Shown here: piece by piece, positions 16,133 to 64,000 of the stretch | How positions within the stretch are numbered: position 1 is the stretch's first letter | How the letters are laid out: the number at the start of each line of letters is the position of its first letter | From: Naegleria gruberi | Taxonomy: Eukaryota | NCBI GenBank assembly: GCA_000004985.1 | Contig: GG738866.1 | Reading direction: 5' to 3' (one strand) | Length of the DNA: 64,000 bases | Notes under the pieces: model-generated | Told to the model about the DNA's origin: nothing | The model's database searches: none | The model's input: the letters and a program-made list of their open reading frames with translations, nothing else | Made by a program: the position numbers and the translations under genes

Positions 16133-17953
16133 TTAATTGAAATAGTGCTTTGTGTGTTCTCTTGGATGGAAATATAGTGGATACTTGTTAGTGTTAATGT
16201 AGAACATTGATTGGTCAGTCTCCATTTCTGGGAATTCAGAATGTTTCTTTGTGAGAGTAAAGTTTCTAATGACATTGATCAAAAGGAAATGGAGCTCTGT
16301 ATTTGCAACACGACTTCCGGGACATTTTCTTAACAAATAGTTAATACTATTACAAAAGAAACAAATAACTTACCTTGCACCAACCTATATTATTCACATT
16401 TTCAACATTTTCAAAATGAATTCGAAAGGAGAAATGTTTAGAATCAGTAAAATTAAAAAGAAACAACTTACTCCGAAAGGAATTGAAGAAAACATTGATT
16501 TTGGAGCAAGAGGGGATTTCTTTTCATGTCTCTCAGGAATAAATTCCAAAGCTCTCGGAACGTATTCATCTTTCATGCTTGGATAATAATTCATGAAAAT
16601 TGCAATAGTTTCCTTTGGTAGAATATATCCACCAATTTCAATATCAGAATTCAATTGTCTTCCCATTGTAATGTAAGCAAATGAATTGAATCTTAAAACT
16701 TCTTCAACAAATTGTCTCACCAACTTGAGTTGTTTGTATTGCTCTGGGGTGATGATTAGTCCATTTTCAGATGAAACTTCATCCAAAGCCGGAGGACCAA
16801 AAACCTCAAGGCACTCGTTATAGAGCTTTTCTTGATATTCTGGATGATGAGCCAATCTGTACAAGATAAAATTCATGATACGACTTGTAATATCCACACC
16901 TCCCTGAATAAATGTAGAGAGAACTGTTGACACCTTTTCATTTGAGTTGGTGGCTCCCTCTGCCTTCTTTACAAGAATTTCGTAAAATCTTGGCTTGGCA
17001 TTTTCTGGTTGTGAAGCTCCAAATCTTTCAACACAATATCTGGCATTGTCAATCACTTGATCGTAATAACTCTCCAATGTCTTGTACTCCTCTGTCTTGA
17101 AATATTTGTAGAGTGGGAACTTGTAATCTAATCTTCCACACAAATCAAGAATTGTGATGGCTTTCTTTGAGAAATCGTCAAGTTTGAATGGTAAACTCTT
17201 TTCAAGCTCTTCAGTCATTTTGACACCAAAGAAAATTTTCATAATTGCATCGAATGCATATCTAGAAGTTGCTTCGAGACCATCATCAAGTCTGAATTGA
17301 TTTTCACCAACTTTTACAAAGTTCTTCTTCAATTGTCTGATCAAATCACTGTTCATTTCTGTCAGTTGAGGTACCACGATTTGATCGAGAAACTCTGGTT
17401 TCATGGCAAGGTTGAAGATTTGACGAATTTCATTCCAATTCTCTTCAATCTTCATTTCAATAGGTACCATTTCATAACCACGGCTTTCTTTGTAATATCT
17501 TGAAGGATTTAGAACTGTTCTACGTTCCTCAACTCTGGCAAGATCAGCAATCCAGTATGGGTTTGAAATGATAACCATATTTTTGTTTAAAGCAGTCAAC
17601 TTGACCATCTCTCCATACTCATTACACAAATCAAGAAAATAACTCATTGTATTCTTGGAGTGTTTCTTGATATCCAGATAGTTACCAAGAATTGGAAGAG
17701 GCTTAGGGCCTGGAATTTCTCCAAATGGTTTGGCAACAGATTTGGCCACATCTACTGTACCATCCTCTTTATGATAGGGACACTTGGCTTCAGTGTTGGC
17801 AGCAACAGATGAAATAGTTATGGATTCCTTTGTGGAATCTTGGTGATGGTACAATCTATTGTTGCTGTGGTGTGTTGTTAAAACAGAGAGAACCTGTTGT
17901 AGTAGAGGTTTGTGGATGAGGGCAGCATGTCTGATGGATTTGAGTGATGACAT
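16133..17953 (-). CDS. Cytochrome P450, mitochondrial-clan-like; exons 16472..17953, 16374..16384 (11-nt micro-exon), 16133..16328
   Basis: N-terminal presequence-like region then PGPKPLPILGN; EEVLRFNSF (ExxR); FIPERH (PERF); ..IPFG|GTAAGT. The heme loop FG-VGAR-KCPG is only restored by including GTTGGTGCAAG, flanked by AATATAG| and |GTAAGTT, then AAAATGTCCCGGAAGTCGT. Confidence 0.75.
16374..16384 (-). other. 11-nt micro-exon (GTTGGTGCAAG) encoding VGA(R) of the P450 heme-binding loop
   Basis: Perfect acceptor (atatag) and donor (gtaagt) flank it. The phases (0 in, 2 out) match both neighbouring exons. Confidence 0.6.
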
Positions 17954-24855: not shown

Positions 24856-25461
24856 TTAACAAACACCATATCCACCACAACCACCACCATATCCATATCC
24901 TGCACCATAACCATAACCACCTCCATAACCACCTCCATAACCACCATAATATGGAACAGCTCCATAACCATAACCACCTCCGTAACCACCATAGTATGGG
25001 ACACCATAACCTCCGTAACCACCATAATATGGAGCAGGGTAGTAACTACTGTAAGCATTATTATTACCATAGCTAGTTGGTCCAACGTAATTGCTTCCAT
25101 AGCTTGAGTATGGATTTGAGCTAACTGCATTAATTTGATTACTGTAAGCTTGAGTATTTTGAGCATATTGATTGTAATTTCCTCCAGCAACTCCATAATT
25201 TTGACCAGCACCACCATTGTAACCATAATTGTTACCATAATTATTGGAAGAAGCACCACCACCATATCCACCATAGTATGGAATTGGAGCTACTGGTGGA
25301 ACAGCATAACCATAACCACCTCCATAACCACCACCACCACCATAGTAACCACCACCAGAAGTACTTGCAGAATCCTTCTTTTCCTTGTCATCAGATGCAT
25401 GAACTGCAACTGTTGCAATGAGAAGTGTTGCAATTGTAAATACAATGAATTGTTTAATCAT
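24856..25461 (-). CDS. Secreted Gly/Tyr-rich low-complexity (structural/matrix-like) protein
   Basis: Signal peptide MIKQFIVFTIATLLIATVAVHA, then long (GGY/GYG)n and N/S/Y-rich repeats. Plus-strand ORFs 24787..25479 are mirror artefacts of the repeat. Confidence 0.55.
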   Translation of the reverse strand: MIKQFIVFTIATLLIATVAVHASDDKEKKDSASTSGGGYYGGGGGYGGGYGYAVPPVAPIPYYGGYGGGASSNNYGNNYGYNGGAGQNYGVAGGNYNQYAQNTQAYSNQINAVSSNPYSSYGSNYVGPTSYGNNNAYSSYYPAPYYGGYGGYGVPYYGGYGGGYGYGAVPYYGGYGGGYGGGYGYGAGYGYGGGCGGYGVC

Positions 25462-56577: not shown

Positions 56578-57372
56578 ATGGCCAGAAATCAAGAAAAGGC
56601 CCAATCCATGCTGAATCGTTGGACCAATTTTAGGATTGGTAACGAATTCACAGAGAAGAAAAGGCCTCCTCATCCATCATTTTCTAAAACTTTAAACGCT
56701 AGTGAACATTGGCGAAGAAATGTGTTGAAGGAAATTGCTGAAAAGGTGACGATCATACAAAATGCTTCTCTAGGTGAACATCGTATCCGAGATTTAAACG
56801 ATGAAATTAATAGATTAATACAAGAAAAAGCCGATTGGGAAAAAAGAATTATTGAATTAGGAGGAATTGATTATAGTAAACAAGATATTAAATTATATGA
56901 TGATAATGGACAAATAATAGAAATTGGTGAAGGATATAAATATTTTGGAGCGGCGCGAGAACTACCTGGTATAAAAGAATTATTATTTGAAAAACAAAAA
57001 TCATCAGAAAAACAACAGAAAAACAAATTTAATGAACTTTACAAAGGAATTGATTCTTTTTATTATGGATACAATGAAGATGAGGATGAACCTGATTTGC
57101 TTGCTGCAGAAGAAAAAGCAGAAGAGGAGCTTAGAAAGGAGTTTTATCAACGTTATTTAAAAGCTGTGGAAATTAAAAAGAAAAAGATGGGAGGTGGTGG
57201 AATTCAAAATGTCACAAGACAAACTATGGAAGCAAAATCATTTGGAGTGTTAAATGAAGAAGAAAAGAAAACCTTTGTATATAATGTACAACTACCAACA
57301 CAGGATGTTATTGAACAAGCACTGTTAGAAAAGAAGAAGCAAGATTTATTGAAAGAACTAGGAGAATTTTAA
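56578..57372 (+). CDS. ISY1: Pre-mRNA splicing factor ISY1
   Basis: MARNQEKAQSMLNRW..., HWRRNVLKEIAEKVTIIQNASLGEHRIRDLNDEINRLIQEKADWEKRIIELGG. Near-identical to conserved ISY1 blocks. Confidence 0.85.
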   Translation: MARNQEKAQSMLNRWTNFRIGNEFTEKKRPPHPSFSKTLNASEHWRRNVLKEIAEKVTIIQNASLGEHRIRDLNDEINRLIQEKADWEKRIIELGGIDYSKQDIKLYDDNGQIIEIGEGYKYFGAARELPGIKELLFEKQKSSEKQQKNKFNELYKGIDSFYYGYNEDEDEPDLLAAEEKAEEELRKEFYQRYLKAVEIKKKKMGGGGIQNVTRQTMEAKSFGVLNEEEKKTFVYNVQLPTQDVIEQALLEKKKQDLLKELGEF

Positions 57373-62298: not shown

Positions 62299-63256
62299 AT
62301 GTCTAATTCTCCAAAGCCTTCTTCATCAACTCCTCCAGGCTATGATCAGCAAGCAGCTTCTACCACATCAGCTTCATTAGTCAAAGTGGAATACAACAAT
62401 GAACATAAATATGCACTCATTACATTACAACATAAACCTGTAAATTCATTCACTTTGGAAATGATGAATGCAATGATTAGTGCTATTGATGAGGTGGAGA
62501 AGAATTCTCAAATGAATGCCATTGTATTTACTTCAGGAATTTCTAATATATTCTCTGCAGGGTTGGATTTAAAAACTTTTAGAACTGATTCAAAGGATAA
62601 AATTGCCAACTATTGGTTTAAATTACAAGAATTCTTTCTCAAGATTTATGGTTGTACATTATTCACTTGTGCTGTAATTAATGGTCAATGTTTTGCAGGT
62701 GGTTGCTTGTTTGCATTGTGTTGTGATTATAGAATTATTCATACTAATTATTTAATTGGATTGAATGAAGCGTAAGTTGTCAATTTTTAATAATTCAATT
62801 GATTTAAGATTCAATTAGTCAATTTGGTAAGTTGTTAAAATTTTTATAAATTTACATATCTTTATAGGTCTTGTTGCTCCTTGGTGGTTTGCTCAAGCTT
62901 ATGAGAATGTCATTGGAAAGAGACAATGTGAAATGCATATTCAATTAGGTACCTTACATAAAGCATCGAGTGCTCTTTCCATTGGACTCGTCGATGAAGT
63001 TCATGATAAATTTGAAACAATGAAAGAGTCAGCCCTTATTCATGTGAAGAAATGGAATAAGGTCAACCAATTTGCAAAGAGAGAATCAAAAAAGATTTTA
63101 AGAAGAGACTTATATGAAAAATTGAATTCCACTCGTGAGCAAGATGTTCAACTATCTGCCTCTTTAATTAGTTCTCCAAGAGTTCAAAAACTTCTTGCTG
63201 AATATTTACAAAGTTTACAAAAGAATTCAAGCTCTAATAGACCTTCAAAATTATAA
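62299..63256 (+). CDS. Peroxisomal enoyl-CoA delta-isomerase / crotonase-fold enzyme with C-terminal PTS1 (-SKL); exons 62299..62771, 62819..62826 (8-nt micro-exon), 62868..63256
   Basis: ..IVFTSGISNIFSAGLDLKTF..FAGGCLFALCCDYRII.. then IGLNEA|QF|GLVAPWWF..IGKRQCEMHIQLGT.. The crotonase GLxExxxGL(x)P motif is only obtained via the micro-exon TCAATTTG, between CAATTAG| and |GTAAGTTG. The C-terminus is ..NRPSKL*. Confidence 0.7.
62819..62826 (+). other. 8-nt micro-exon (TCAATTTG) in the enoyl-CoA isomerase gene
   Basis: Two consecutive GTAAGTTGT donors are 55 nt apart. Exon 1 ends in phase 2 (GAAGC|gtaagt). Only AATTAG|TCAATTTG|GTAAGT + TTTATAG|GTCTTG gives an open, motif-preserving frame. Confidence 0.55.
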
Positions 63257-64000
63257 ATTTAAATCCCAACATCTCAGTGCCTCCTCATCACTTCCACAAT
63301 AAAGATATTTATCCTTACTAACACAAAGTGAAAATACTTGCATTGAAAGTCTTTCAATTGTTCTTAATAATTTGACACTCTTATTTGATGCATCGAGAGA
63401 ATATTGACAAATAGTTCCATCTATTGATCCACTGTAAACATGTGATCCAATAACTTGGCAAGATGTAACCTTATCAGAGTGTTCACTTAATGAAATAATT
63501 GGTTCACTATTTTCTACTGAAAATATTTTTACATGATTCGAATTATCTCCACTCACTAAAATATCATTTTCCACACTCAAGCAAGTAATATCTGAATAGT
63601 GACTATTATATCTTTTCTCAATTGTGTATGAATGATCATCATTCAATGAAAGTGCTTGTAATGAACCATTTGTAGATCCAACAAATATTACAGATTTATC
63701 CTTAATTTTTCCAACATGACAACAAAATGGTGTGCCAAAATTGGTTGAAATTGAATTAATTTTACAATGTTCCGTACTATCCATTATATGAGATCCAAAT
63801 GAACTGGTATTTCCTCCAAAAGATGATCCACTCATAATATCAAAACTATAACTAGATACATTACTATGGTTATTGGTAGATGAATCATCAGAACCAAGTT
63901 TCCTAATATCCCAAACATTTAATTTAGAATCTTGACCAACACTGTAAATTAAATAATCATTTGAAAAATCATTTAAATCACTCCAACATGTTAAATCATT
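63251..64000 (-). CDS. WD40-repeat protein, 3' portion (gene continues beyond window end)
   Basis: The minus ORF 63251..63835 plus the open frame to 64000 contain WD-like units (..LVSGDNSNHVKIFSV.., ..YSGSIDGTICQYSL.., ..YCGSDEEALRCWDL). Confidence 0.55.
   Translation of the reverse strand, partial: NDLTCWSDLNDFSNDYLIYSVGQDSKLNVWDIRKLGSDDSSTNNHSNVSSYSFDIMSGSSFGGNTSSFGSHIMDSTEHCKINSISTNFGTPFCCHVGKIKDKSVIFVGSTNGSLQALSLNDDHSYTIEKRYNSHYSDITCLSVENDILVSGDNSNHVKIFSVENSEPIISLSEHSDKVTSCQVIGSHVYSGSIDGTICQYSLDASNKSVKLLRTIERLSMQVFSLCVSKDKYLYCGSDEEALRCWDLNL

What the first reader, a model, noticed from the sequence alone, without database searches (positions are those of the whole stretch)
62772..62867. 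8-nt micro-exon in a peroxisomal enoyl-CoA isomerase, flanked by two near-identical GTAAGTTGT donors
Exon 1 ends in phase 2 with a stop immediately downstream (GAAGCG TAA). The C-terminal exon frame requires ..QFG|LVAPWW. Only the path GC|gtaagttg..caattag|TCAATTTG|gtaagttg..tttatag|GTCTTG gives IGLNEAQFGLVAPWW, the crotonase-fold GLxExxxGLxP motif. The two donors 55 nt apart share the 9-mer GTAAGTTGT. That looks like a local duplication that created the micro-exon, or a substrate for alternative or recursive splicing. The protein ends in -SKL (PTS1).
Basis: partly seen in the sequence, partly recalled or inferred. Interest (0 to 1): 0.6.

Follow-up and report, generated by a model that had tools for sequence, protein, structure and literature searches.

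The report
Annotated 8-nt micro-exon in Naegleria isomerase
The 8-base exon is very probably real and is needed to make an intact fatty-acid-oxidation enzyme in the amoeba Naegleria gruberi, but the public gene model already contains it and the "duplicated splice sites" idea is not supported, so this is a correct but ordinary finding.

Summary
Exon 1 (62299-62771) ends GAA GC, with an in-frame TAA right after it. A 47-nt GTAAGT..TAG intron follows, then the 8-nt exon TCAATTTG (62819-62826), then a 41-nt GTAAGT..TAG intron, then exon 3 (62868-63256), which ends in SKL.

Of 797 ORF-preserving splice paths, this one scores best against the closest homologue. It restores IGLNEAQFGLVAPWWF without a gap. 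Both introns fit the 39-54 nt size of most other short candidate introns in the window. An independent 99%-identical assembly carries the same structure, so it is not an assembly artefact.

The window is Naegleria gruberi. The exact 289-aa product is already public as XP_002677559.1 / EFC44815.1 (NAEGRDRAFT_33361), so the micro-exon is already annotated.

The duplication idea is not supported. The intron bodies are no more alike than unrelated introns, and GTAAGTTGT also starts an unrelated intron. Recursive splicing does not fit either. One oddity remains: TCAATT, the micro-exon's own motif, occurs four times in 45 nt across intron 1.

N. lovaniensis and an environmental homologue have no intron here. 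A second micro-exon (11 nt, also annotated) lies in a P450 gene in the same window. No transcript data could be reached.

The parts
62299..62771 (+). Exon 1 of the enoyl-CoA isomerase gene (NAEGRDRAFT_33361). It runs from the ATG to GAA GC and ends in phase 2, two bases after the codon of Glu157.
   Evidence: ORF and translation. (ECH_1). (Glu157 aligns with residue 136 of chain 1SG4_A).
62772..62818 (+). Intron 1, 47 nt, GTAAGTTGT...CAATTAG. It contains three of the four TCAATT copies (62780, 62795, 62811). Possible branch sites are TTGAT (A at 62802) or TCAAT.
   Evidence: Length fits the other short candidate introns of the window. TCAATT cluster. Present in the independent contig L035 with one substitution at 62811.
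62819..62826 (+). The 8-nt micro-exon TCAATTTG. It supplies the third base of Ala158, all of Gln159 and Phe160, and the first base of invariant Gly161.
   Evidence: it aligns base for base with ACAATTTG and AAAATTTG in the two intron-less homologues. (unique best path). (the exact product is XP_002677559.1).
62827..62867 (+). Intron 2, 41 nt, GTAAGTTGTTAAAA...CTTTATAG, inserted at a G|GT site (phase 1).
62868..63256 (+). Exon 3, GT CTT GTT GCT CCT TGG TGG ... TCA AAA TTA TAA. It encodes the C-terminal half of the enzyme and ends in the PTS1-type tripeptide SKL.
   Evidence: The homologues end in SSKL or PSKL.

Best explanation
This is an ordinary protein-coding gene of Naegleria gruberi: NAEGRDRAFT_33361, an ECI1/DCI-type delta3,delta2-enoyl-CoA isomerase with a C-terminal SKL, so it is probably peroxisomal. 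Its coding sequence is interrupted, just after the catalytic-glutamate codon, by two very short U2-type GT-AG introns (47 and 41 nt) that lie only 8 nt apart. The 8 nt between them (TCAATTTG) is a constitutive micro-exon.

Shown: the sequence anatomy, the uniqueness of the splice path, the fit to homologues, the normal size and signals of both introns for this genome, the independent genomic confirmation, and identity with the public protein model.

Inferred: how it is spliced. Introns of about 40-50 nt are presumably recognised across the intron (intron definition), so each is recognised on its own. An 8-nt exon is probably too short to hold a 3' splice-site complex and a U1 complex at once, so the two introns are most likely removed one after the other. 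After the first removal the 8-mer is simply the end of a normal-sized exon. Every other outcome gives a premature stop: retaining intron 1 stops at once, retaining intron 2 stops after 6 further codons, and skipping the 8-mer stops after 11 altered residues (12 codons). Those products would lack the C-terminal half and the SKL.
For: -: coordinates, splice signals, translations of all outcomes.
- 797 ORF-preserving paths, with the micro-exon path uniquely best.
- ungapped protein and nucleotide alignment with intron-less homologues. IGLNEAQFGLVAPWWF is identical in P0001, and Gly161 is invariant.
- most other short candidate introns in the window are 39-54 nt, mostly with GTAAGT, GTATGT or GTAGGT donors.
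- GTAAGT is rare (25 in 128 kb of both strands).
- the Isy1 ORF of the window is 100% identical to a N. gruberi protein.
- the exact 289-aa product is EFC44815.1 / XP_002677559.1 / UniRef100_D2VEL7. None of five alternative models is on record.
- an independent 99%-identical genomic contig has the same structure.
- family assignment.
- a second, 11-nt micro-exon in the window's P450 gene is likewise in the public model, so such exons recur in this genome's gene models.
Against: - No transcript evidence (EST or RNA-seq split reads) could be reached with these tools. The public model may itself be a homology-guided prediction, so it is not fully independent of my reasoning.
- No protein cluster from transcriptome assemblies contains the product; its cluster has only the NCBI entry and one ENA genomic fragment.
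- The order of intron removal and the fate of mis-spliced RNAs are inferred, not observed.
- Peroxisomal location rests only on the SKL terminus and on literature that N. gruberi has PEX5 and uses mostly -SKL signals (PMC7549135).
Confidence: 0.9

Rival explanations
1. Local duplication origin. One intron arose as a copy of its neighbour, or of the exon-intron boundary. The micro-exon would then be a by-product of a duplication or slippage event rather than of two independent intron insertions.
For: - The shared 9-mer GTAAGTTGT occurs 4 times in the window against 0.62 expected.
- TCAATT, the micro-exon's own first six bases, occurs at 62780, 62795, 62811 and 62819. That is one of only three such hexamer clusters in 64 kb, against 0.03 expected from Markov simulations.
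- GTAAGTTG-TCAATTT at the start of intron 1 is a circular permutation of TCAATTTG-GTAAGTTG at the micro-exon/intron 2 boundary (read).
- Intron 1 has the highest share of flank-derived 6-mers among 18 introns, shuffle p about 0.05.
- The gene's only two introns lie 8 nt apart, which has a chance of roughly 2% if positions in an 870-nt CDS were independent (my estimate).
Against: - Intron 1 against intron 2 is not significant once the donor consensus is set aside: core shuffle p = 0.19; rank 48 of 153 intron pairs; anchored global alignments z = 0.3-0.5.
- Tandem Repeats Finder reports nothing.
- Three of the four GTAAGTTGT copies are donors, one of them in an unrelated gene whose homologue from a metagenome has the same donor. 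The 9-mer therefore looks like a favoured donor variant.
- No simple tandem-duplication scheme reproduces the observed order without an extra 8-nt deletion.
- The third TCAATT copy is not conserved in the 99%-identical strain.
Confidence: 0.15
2. Both introns are ancestral, and the intron-less homologues lost them together by recombination with a cDNA. This was proposed for the plant APC11 1-nt micro-exon. The micro-exon would then be old rather than a recent N. gruberi creation.
For: - N. lovaniensis (L001) and an environmental homologue (L002) are entirely intron-less in this gene, as expected after reverse-transcriptase-mediated loss.
- There is a plant precedent of micro-exon genes with intron-less relatives (PMC8831610).
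Against: - None of the other 31 related loci has an intron at this site, although one of the two search patterns required the motif to be contiguous.
- The gene structure of the N. gruberi paralogue XP_002674197.1 could not be obtained.
- Gain and loss cannot be told apart with the taxa available.
Confidence: 0.35
3. Artefact or dead gene. The 88 extra bases would be an assembly error, or the locus a pseudogene, and the apparent splice sites would be coincidence.
For: Homologues have uninterrupted coding sequence here.
Against: - An independent ENA assembly from a slightly different strain (6 differences in 611 nt) carries the same 88 bases.
- Both introns have full GTAAGT donors, TAG acceptors and typical lengths.
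- Both flanking exons are intact and keep all family-invariant residues.
Confidence: 0.02
4. Regulated unproductive splicing. The first donor is sometimes joined to the last acceptor, which removes 96 nt and skips the 8-mer. The result is a frameshifted, prematurely terminated transcript that tunes expression. This is compatible with the best explanation rather than an alternative to it.
For: - The two donors have identical 9-mers, so their intrinsic strength is probably similar.
- Skipping ends the protein after 11 altered residues.
Against: - A 96-nt intron would be about twice the usual short-intron size in this window.
- There are no transcript data.
- No conserved RNA structure stands out: fold z = -0.25.
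Confidence: 0.1

Closest known systems
Public gene model NAEGRDRAFT_33361 (EFC44815.1 / XP_002677559.1 / UniProt D2VEL7) of Naegleria gruberi NEG-M
   Same: The 289-aa product is identical from the first residue to the last (exact look-up). Only the 8-nt micro-exon path yields that sequence, so the model must contain the same exon.
   Different: Nothing in the sequence differs. The databases call it 'hypothetical protein' or 'Enoyl-CoA delta isomerase 1, mitochondrial', whereas the SKL terminus points to peroxisomes. I could not see the record's CDS coordinates or learn whether ESTs support them.
Small coding micro-exons (15 nt or less) of plants, e.g. the 1-nt exons of APC11 and VPS55 (PMC8831610)
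   Same: Both are tiny constitutive exons inside conserved protein domains, flanked by two canonical introns with GTRAGT-type donors. Both are essential for the reading frame. In both cases some relatives are intron-less, with the bases absorbed into one large exon.
   Different: The plant cases are backed by RNA-seq and RT-PCR and are often missing from annotations. Here there is no transcript evidence, but the annotation has the exon. The flanking introns here are far shorter (41 and 47 nt).
Human and rat mitochondrial delta3,delta2-enoyl-CoA isomerase ECI1 (PDB 1SG4, 1XX4)
   Same: These are the best solved-structure matches (E = 1.3e-50 and 8.2e-49). The alignment is full length, and IGLNEAQFGLVAPWW aligns with IGLNETQLGIIAPFW. 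Glu157 aligns with chain residue 136, which I recall as the catalytic base of human ECI1.
   Different: The mammalian enzymes have a mitochondrial presequence and no SKL. The N. gruberi protein has a Ser/Thr/Pro/Gln-rich N-terminus and a C-terminal SKL.
Recursive splicing sites and spliceosomal twin introns (stwintrons)
   Same: An acceptor and a donor lie very close together, and removal presumably has to be sequential.
   Different: Recursive sites regenerate a 5' splice site at the ligated junction and leave no exon bases. Stwintrons have one intron nested inside the splice signal of another. Here the 8 nt remain in the mRNA and no splice site is regenerated (sequence).
Intron gain by repeat expansion or duplication (Cryptococcus CNN00420, PMC2395259)
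   Same: Closely spaced introns in one gene, and a repeated motif (TCAATT four times) running through intron 1 into the exon.
   Different: In Cryptococcus the gained introns are identical or nearly identical to their neighbours. Here the intron bodies are not significantly similar.

Membership tests
Coding micro-exon flanked by spliceosomal GT-AG introns | Canonical 5' and 3' splice signals on both sides of the short exon | tested here: met
   GTAAGT donors at 62772 and 62827. TAG acceptors ending at 62818 and 62867.
Coding micro-exon flanked by spliceosomal GT-AG introns | Inclusion is needed for the reading frame and restores homology without a gap | tested here: met
   Skipping or retention gives early stops. 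The path is the unique best of 797. Alignment with homologues is ungapped.
Coding micro-exon flanked by spliceosomal GT-AG introns | Flanking introns are of a size the organism normally splices | tested here: met
   47 and 41 nt, against 39-54 nt for most other short candidate introns of the window. Those candidates are ORF-continuity predictions; one of them (the P450 gene's 45-nt intron) is part of a model that matches a public protein exactly.
Coding micro-exon flanked by spliceosomal GT-AG introns | Split transcript reads joining exon 1 to the micro-exon and the micro-exon to exon 3 | not testable with these tools
   No N. gruberi transcript data could be reached. The product's cluster holds only the NCBI model and one genomic ENA fragment.
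ECI1/DCI-type delta3,delta2-enoyl-CoA isomerase (crotonase superfamily) | Crotonase-fold domain over the full length | tested here: met
   Pfam ECH_1 at 1.9e-48, residues 39-278.
ECI1/DCI-type delta3,delta2-enoyl-CoA isomerase (crotonase superfamily) | Closest characterised relatives are ECI1 rather than hydratases, and the catalytic Glu is conserved | tested here: met
   1SG4 and 1XX4 score E about 1e-50, against 1e-18 or weaker for hydratases. Glu157 aligns with chain residue 136 and is invariant in 11 sequences. That residue 136 is the catalytic base is from my memory of the 1SG4 paper.
ECI1/DCI-type delta3,delta2-enoyl-CoA isomerase (crotonase superfamily) | Isomerase activity on 3-enoyl-CoA | not testable with these tools
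   Needs an enzyme assay.
PTS1-targeted peroxisomal matrix protein | C-terminal SKL-type tripeptide | tested here: met
   The protein ends ...NRPSKL. SKL is kept in P0001, P0002 and P0003.
PTS1-targeted peroxisomal matrix protein | The organism has the PTS1 import machinery, and the protein is located in peroxisomes | not testable with these tools
   From the literature only: PEX5 is present in N. gruberi, and its predicted peroxisomal enzymes mostly end in -SKL (PMC7549135). Localisation has not been tested.
Recursive splicing site / stwintron | A 5' splice site is regenerated at the junction after the first splicing step, and no exon bases are retained | tested here: not met
   The junction after removing intron 1 is GAAGC|TCAATTTG, not AG|GTAAGT. 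The 8 nt are required in the mRNA.
Introns related by duplication (tandem duplication, repeat expansion, introner-like copies) | Sequence similarity between the introns beyond splice-site consensus and base composition | tested here: not met
   p = 0.19. Rank 48 of 153, p = 0.32. z = 0.3-0.5. No Tandem Repeats Finder hit.
Introns related by duplication (tandem duplication, repeat expansion, introner-like copies) | Local repeats linking the intron to its flanks | tested here: inconclusive
   The TCAATT x4 cluster is unusual. Flank 6-mer coverage is the highest of 18 introns, but with shuffle p about 0.05. No coherent duplication scheme fits.

The most novel reading that the evidence does not exclude
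N. gruberi may be unusually rich in very small coding exons, and these may arise when a new short intron appears within about 10 nt of an existing one.

- The 64 kb window holds two such exons among roughly 20 candidate introns: 8 nt in the isomerase gene and 11 nt in a P450 gene.
- In the P450 case a 71%-identical homologue keeps the upstream intron, with the same GTAAGTTGT donor, but reads straight through the downstream intron's position.
- In the isomerase case intron 1 is built around four copies of the micro-exon's own TCAATT motif. That pattern would fit slippage or templated break repair that copies the neighbouring exon-intron boundary.

If this is general, it would be a local, sequence-templated route of intron gain that creates micro-exons.
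Probability: 0.12. Interest if true: 0.5.

Novelty: already known. Interest (0 to 1): 0.15.

Why it matters
It matters little beyond quality control. The check shows that a reader working from raw sequence can recover a correct 8-nt exon, and that the public N. gruberi model NAEGRDRAFT_33361 is consistent with homology.

Two minor points may be useful to others:
- The automatic name "mitochondrial ECI1" probably gives the wrong compartment, because the protein and all its close homologues end in SKL.
- Aligners and gene finders used on Naegleria need to allow introns of about 40 nt and exons shorter than 12 nt.

Only if micro-exons turn out to be systematically frequent and recently created in this lineage would the locus say something about how introns are gained.

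Tried and rejected
- **Wrong inference, later corrected.** From I concluded that the gene was missing from the public N. gruberi protein set, because the best hit was only 59-60% identical. The exact look-up showed the product is XP_002677559.1. The homology search missed it because its 90% cluster is represented by a 107-aa ENA fragment.
- **Intron duplication.** Pairwise and anchored alignments of the two introns, and of the two P450 introns, against 16 other introns and against shuffles gave nothing significant or only marginal values: P450 intron A against intron B p = 0.03, rank 12 of 153. Tandem Repeats Finder was empty.
- **RNA structure.** The fold of 62745-62890 has z = -0.25. The many short inverted repeats are at background level.
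- **Relatives carrying the same introns.** The metagenome scan gave 31 loci at 29-55% identity, all contiguous across the site.
- **Genomic DNA of the N. gruberi paralogue and neighbouring gene calls.** Neither is indexed.
- **Literature.** No paper mentions Naegleria micro-exons or this gene.
- **Other splice models.** The alternative in-frame acceptors at 62922 and 62970 delete 21 or 37 conserved residues, and their products are not on record.
- **Window-wide micro-exon scan.** The other hits (19769, 43769, 6257) lie inside long ORFs and were dismissed.

Full report
**What is in the sequence.**
- An ORF starts at the ATG at 62299 and runs to ...GGA TTG AAT GAA GC at 62771. Read through, it hits TAA at 62773-62775.
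- Next comes a 47-nt stretch from GTAAGTTGT to CAATTAG (62772-62818).
- Then come the eight bases TCAATTTG (62819-62826).
- Then comes a 41-nt stretch from GTAAGTTGT to TTTATAG (62827-62867).
- The frame GT CTT GTT GCT CCT TGG TGG then runs to TCA AAA TTA TAA at 63256.
- Joining the three exons gives an 870-nt CDS and a 289-aa protein that contains IGLNEAQFGLVAPWW and ends in SKL.
- Retaining intron 1 stops translation at once. Retaining intron 2 stops it after 6 further codons. Skipping the 8-mer shifts the frame and stops it after 11 altered residues.

**What the gene and organism are.**
- The product matches Pfam ECH_1 at 1.9e-48.
- Its closest solved structures are human and rat mitochondrial 3,2-trans-enoyl-CoA isomerase (1SG4 at 1.3e-50, 1XX4 at 8.2e-49). 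Hydratases score 1e-18 or weaker.
- Glu157, whose codon is the last complete codon of exon 1, aligns with chain residue 136 of 1SG4. From memory, that residue is the catalytic base of human ECI1.
- The Isy1 ORF at 56578-57372 is 100% identical to a Naegleria gruberi protein on a 469,335-nt scaffold. The window's GC content of 33.6% matches the 33% reported for N. gruberi NEG-M (PMC8296547). The window is therefore N. gruberi.
- The nearest homologues are an environmental protein (P0001), N. lovaniensis (P0002) and a N. gruberi paralogue on another scaffold (P0003). Identities are 54-59%. All four proteins end in SKL.
- N. gruberi has PEX5, and its predicted peroxisomal enzymes mostly end in -SKL (PMC7549135). 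A peroxisomal location is therefore plausible but inferred.

**Is the micro-exon path the right one?**
- I enumerated one- and two-intron GT/GC-AG paths between 62650 and 62960; 797 keep the ORF open. The micro-exon path scores best against P0001 (841, with 810 for the runner-up). It is the top-scoring path that uses two full GTAAGT donors, and the only one of the top-ranked paths that keeps the motif without a gap.
- At nucleotide level the spliced sequence aligns base for base with the uninterrupted N. lovaniensis and environmental genes. TCAATTTG corresponds to AAAATTTG and ACAATTTG.
- An ORF-continuity scan found the window's other candidate introns. The short, AT-rich candidates that I judged credible are mostly 39-54 nt, with a few near 88 nt, and have GTAAGT, GTATGT or GTAGGT donors. 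Two introns of 47 and 41 nt are therefore typical. A single 96-nt intron would be about twice the usual short-intron size and would break the frame.
- GTAAGT occurs only 25 times on both strands of the window.

**Not an artefact, and not new.**
- A 611-nt contig from an unrelated ENA assembly (L035) differs from the window at 6 positions. It covers the end of exon 1, intron 1, the 8-mer, intron 2 and exon 3 with the same structure. Its one intronic difference is T to G at 62811.
- An exact-sequence look-up shows the 289-aa product is already public as EFC44815.1 / XP_002677559.1 (NAEGRDRAFT_33361) and UniRef100_D2VEL7.
- Five alternative models are not on record: exon 1 only, skipping, two alternative acceptors, and exon 3 alone.
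- I had earlier inferred that the gene was unannotated. That was wrong. The homology search did not show the self-hit because its 90% cluster is represented by a 107-aa fragment.
- No paper in the library mentions this gene or micro-exons in Naegleria.

**Intron positions in relatives.**
- The N. lovaniensis gene (L001, 840 nt for 279 aa) and the environmental gene (L002, 813 nt for 270 aa) have no introns at all.
- All 31 further metagenomic relatives read through the site without interruption. Those with introns have them elsewhere. One of the two search patterns required the motif to be contiguous, which biases this result.
- Whether N. gruberi gained two introns or the others lost them together cannot be decided. 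Joint loss was proposed for plant APC11 (PMC8831610).

**The duplication idea.**
- Beyond GTAAGT the two donors share only three more bases. The intron bodies are no more alike than unrelated introns of the window: p = 0.19; rank 48 of 153; anchored alignments z = 0.3-0.5.
- GTAAGTTGT occurs four times in the window. One copy is the donor of an unrelated P450 intron, and the homologous intron in a metagenomic relative has the same donor. It looks like a favoured donor variant.
- One signal survives. TCAATT, the micro-exon's first six bases, occurs at 62780, 62795, 62811 and 62819. That is one of only three such clusters in 64 kb, against 0.03 expected. Intron 1 also has the highest flank 6-mer coverage of 18 introns, with p about 0.05.
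- This hints at slippage or templated repair in the history of intron 1. No simple scheme reproduces the sequence, so I rate a duplication origin at about 0.15.
- Recursive splicing is excluded by the anatomy: no donor is regenerated and the 8 nt stay in the mRNA. The region has no unusual RNA fold (z = -0.25).

**A second case in the same window.**
- The P450 gene on the minus strand ends its long exon at 16472 (...CCT TTC GGA).
- It then has an 87-nt intron (16471-16385), an 11-nt exon GTTGGTGCAAG (16384-16374), a 45-nt intron (16373-16329) and a last exon to 16133.
- Only this path produces the haem signature FGVGARKCPG. It extends the Pfam p450 match from profile position 405 to 459. The product is 100% identical over its full length to the public N. 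gruberi protein XP_002677635.1.
- A 71%-identical homologue (L034) has the first intron but reads GTT GGT GCC AGA AAA TGT straight through the position of the second.
- A window-wide scan finds no further credible micro-exon.

**How it most likely works.** This part is inference. With introns of about 40-50 nt, splice sites are presumably paired across the intron, so each intron is recognised on its own. Eight bases are probably too few to hold an upstream 3' splice-site complex and a downstream U1 complex together, so the introns are most likely removed one after the other. After the first removal the 8-mer is part of a normal exon. All other outcomes give truncated products that lack the C-terminal half and the SKL.

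**Verdict.** The micro-exon, the enzyme family and the PTS1 reading are supported. The duplication and recursive-splicing ideas are not. The feature is already in the public gene model and belongs to a known kind, so interest is low.

Noticed in passing
window 16133-16472, minus strand: A second micro-exon in a cytochrome P450 gene. The order is an 87-nt intron (16471-16385, donor GTAAGTTGT), an 11-nt exon GTTGGTGCAAG (16384-16374) coding V-G-A-R of the haem signature FGVGARKCPG, a 45-nt intron (16373-16329), and a last exon to 16133. My spliced model equals the public protein XP_002677635.1 exactly.
   Followed up: yes
L034 2190-2300 (ENA ERZ929261 contig): A 71%-identical P450 homologue keeps the first intron at the same position with the same GTAAGTTGTT donor. 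It lacks the second intron and reads GTTGGTGCCAGAAAATGT continuously. The 11-nt micro-exon is therefore specific to one lineage. Orthology is unproven.
   Followed up: partly
window 62780-62824: TCAATT occurs four times in 45 nt (62780, 62795, 62811, 62819); the last copy is the micro-exon itself. This is one of only three such hexamer clusters in 64 kb. In the 99%-identical strain (L035) the third copy reads GCAATT.
   Followed up: partly
window 62809-62818 and 62939-62948: The last 10 nt of intron 1 (ATTCAATTAG) recur exactly in exon 3, where they code I-Q-L of HIQLGT. I estimate about 0.1 such matches by chance in this 300-nt region, and the similar peptides AQFG and IQLG partly explain it.
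   Followed up: no
window 63251-63256: The isomerase gene's stop codon (63254-63256) abuts the stop of a convergent minus-strand ORF (63251-63835). That ORF continues beyond the window towards its 5' end. The two 3' untranslated regions must overlap.
   Followed up: no
whole window (candidate introns listed): Most short, credible candidate introns are 39-54 nt, with a few near 88 nt. The annotation-wide mean quoted for N. gruberi is 203 bp (PMC8296547). Either the distribution has a long tail or some annotated long introns are doubtful.
   Followed up: no
window 24905-25351: Two runs of CCATAACCA-type repeats on the plus strand. They are the only other hexamer clusters of the kind seen in intron 1. 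They lie where long ORFs occur on both strands (candidate hits at 25042-25148), so they are probably a low-complexity coding repeat.
   Followed up: no
tool behaviour: The homology search did not return the query's own public entry, because the 90% cluster containing the 289-aa N. gruberi protein is represented by a 107-aa fragment (P0261). Absence of a near-identical hit in that tool does not show that a protein is unannotated.
   Followed up: yes
window 56578-57372, plus strand: An intron-less gene for the splicing factor Isy1, 100% identical to the N. gruberi protein. It was used only to identify the organism.
   Followed up: yes
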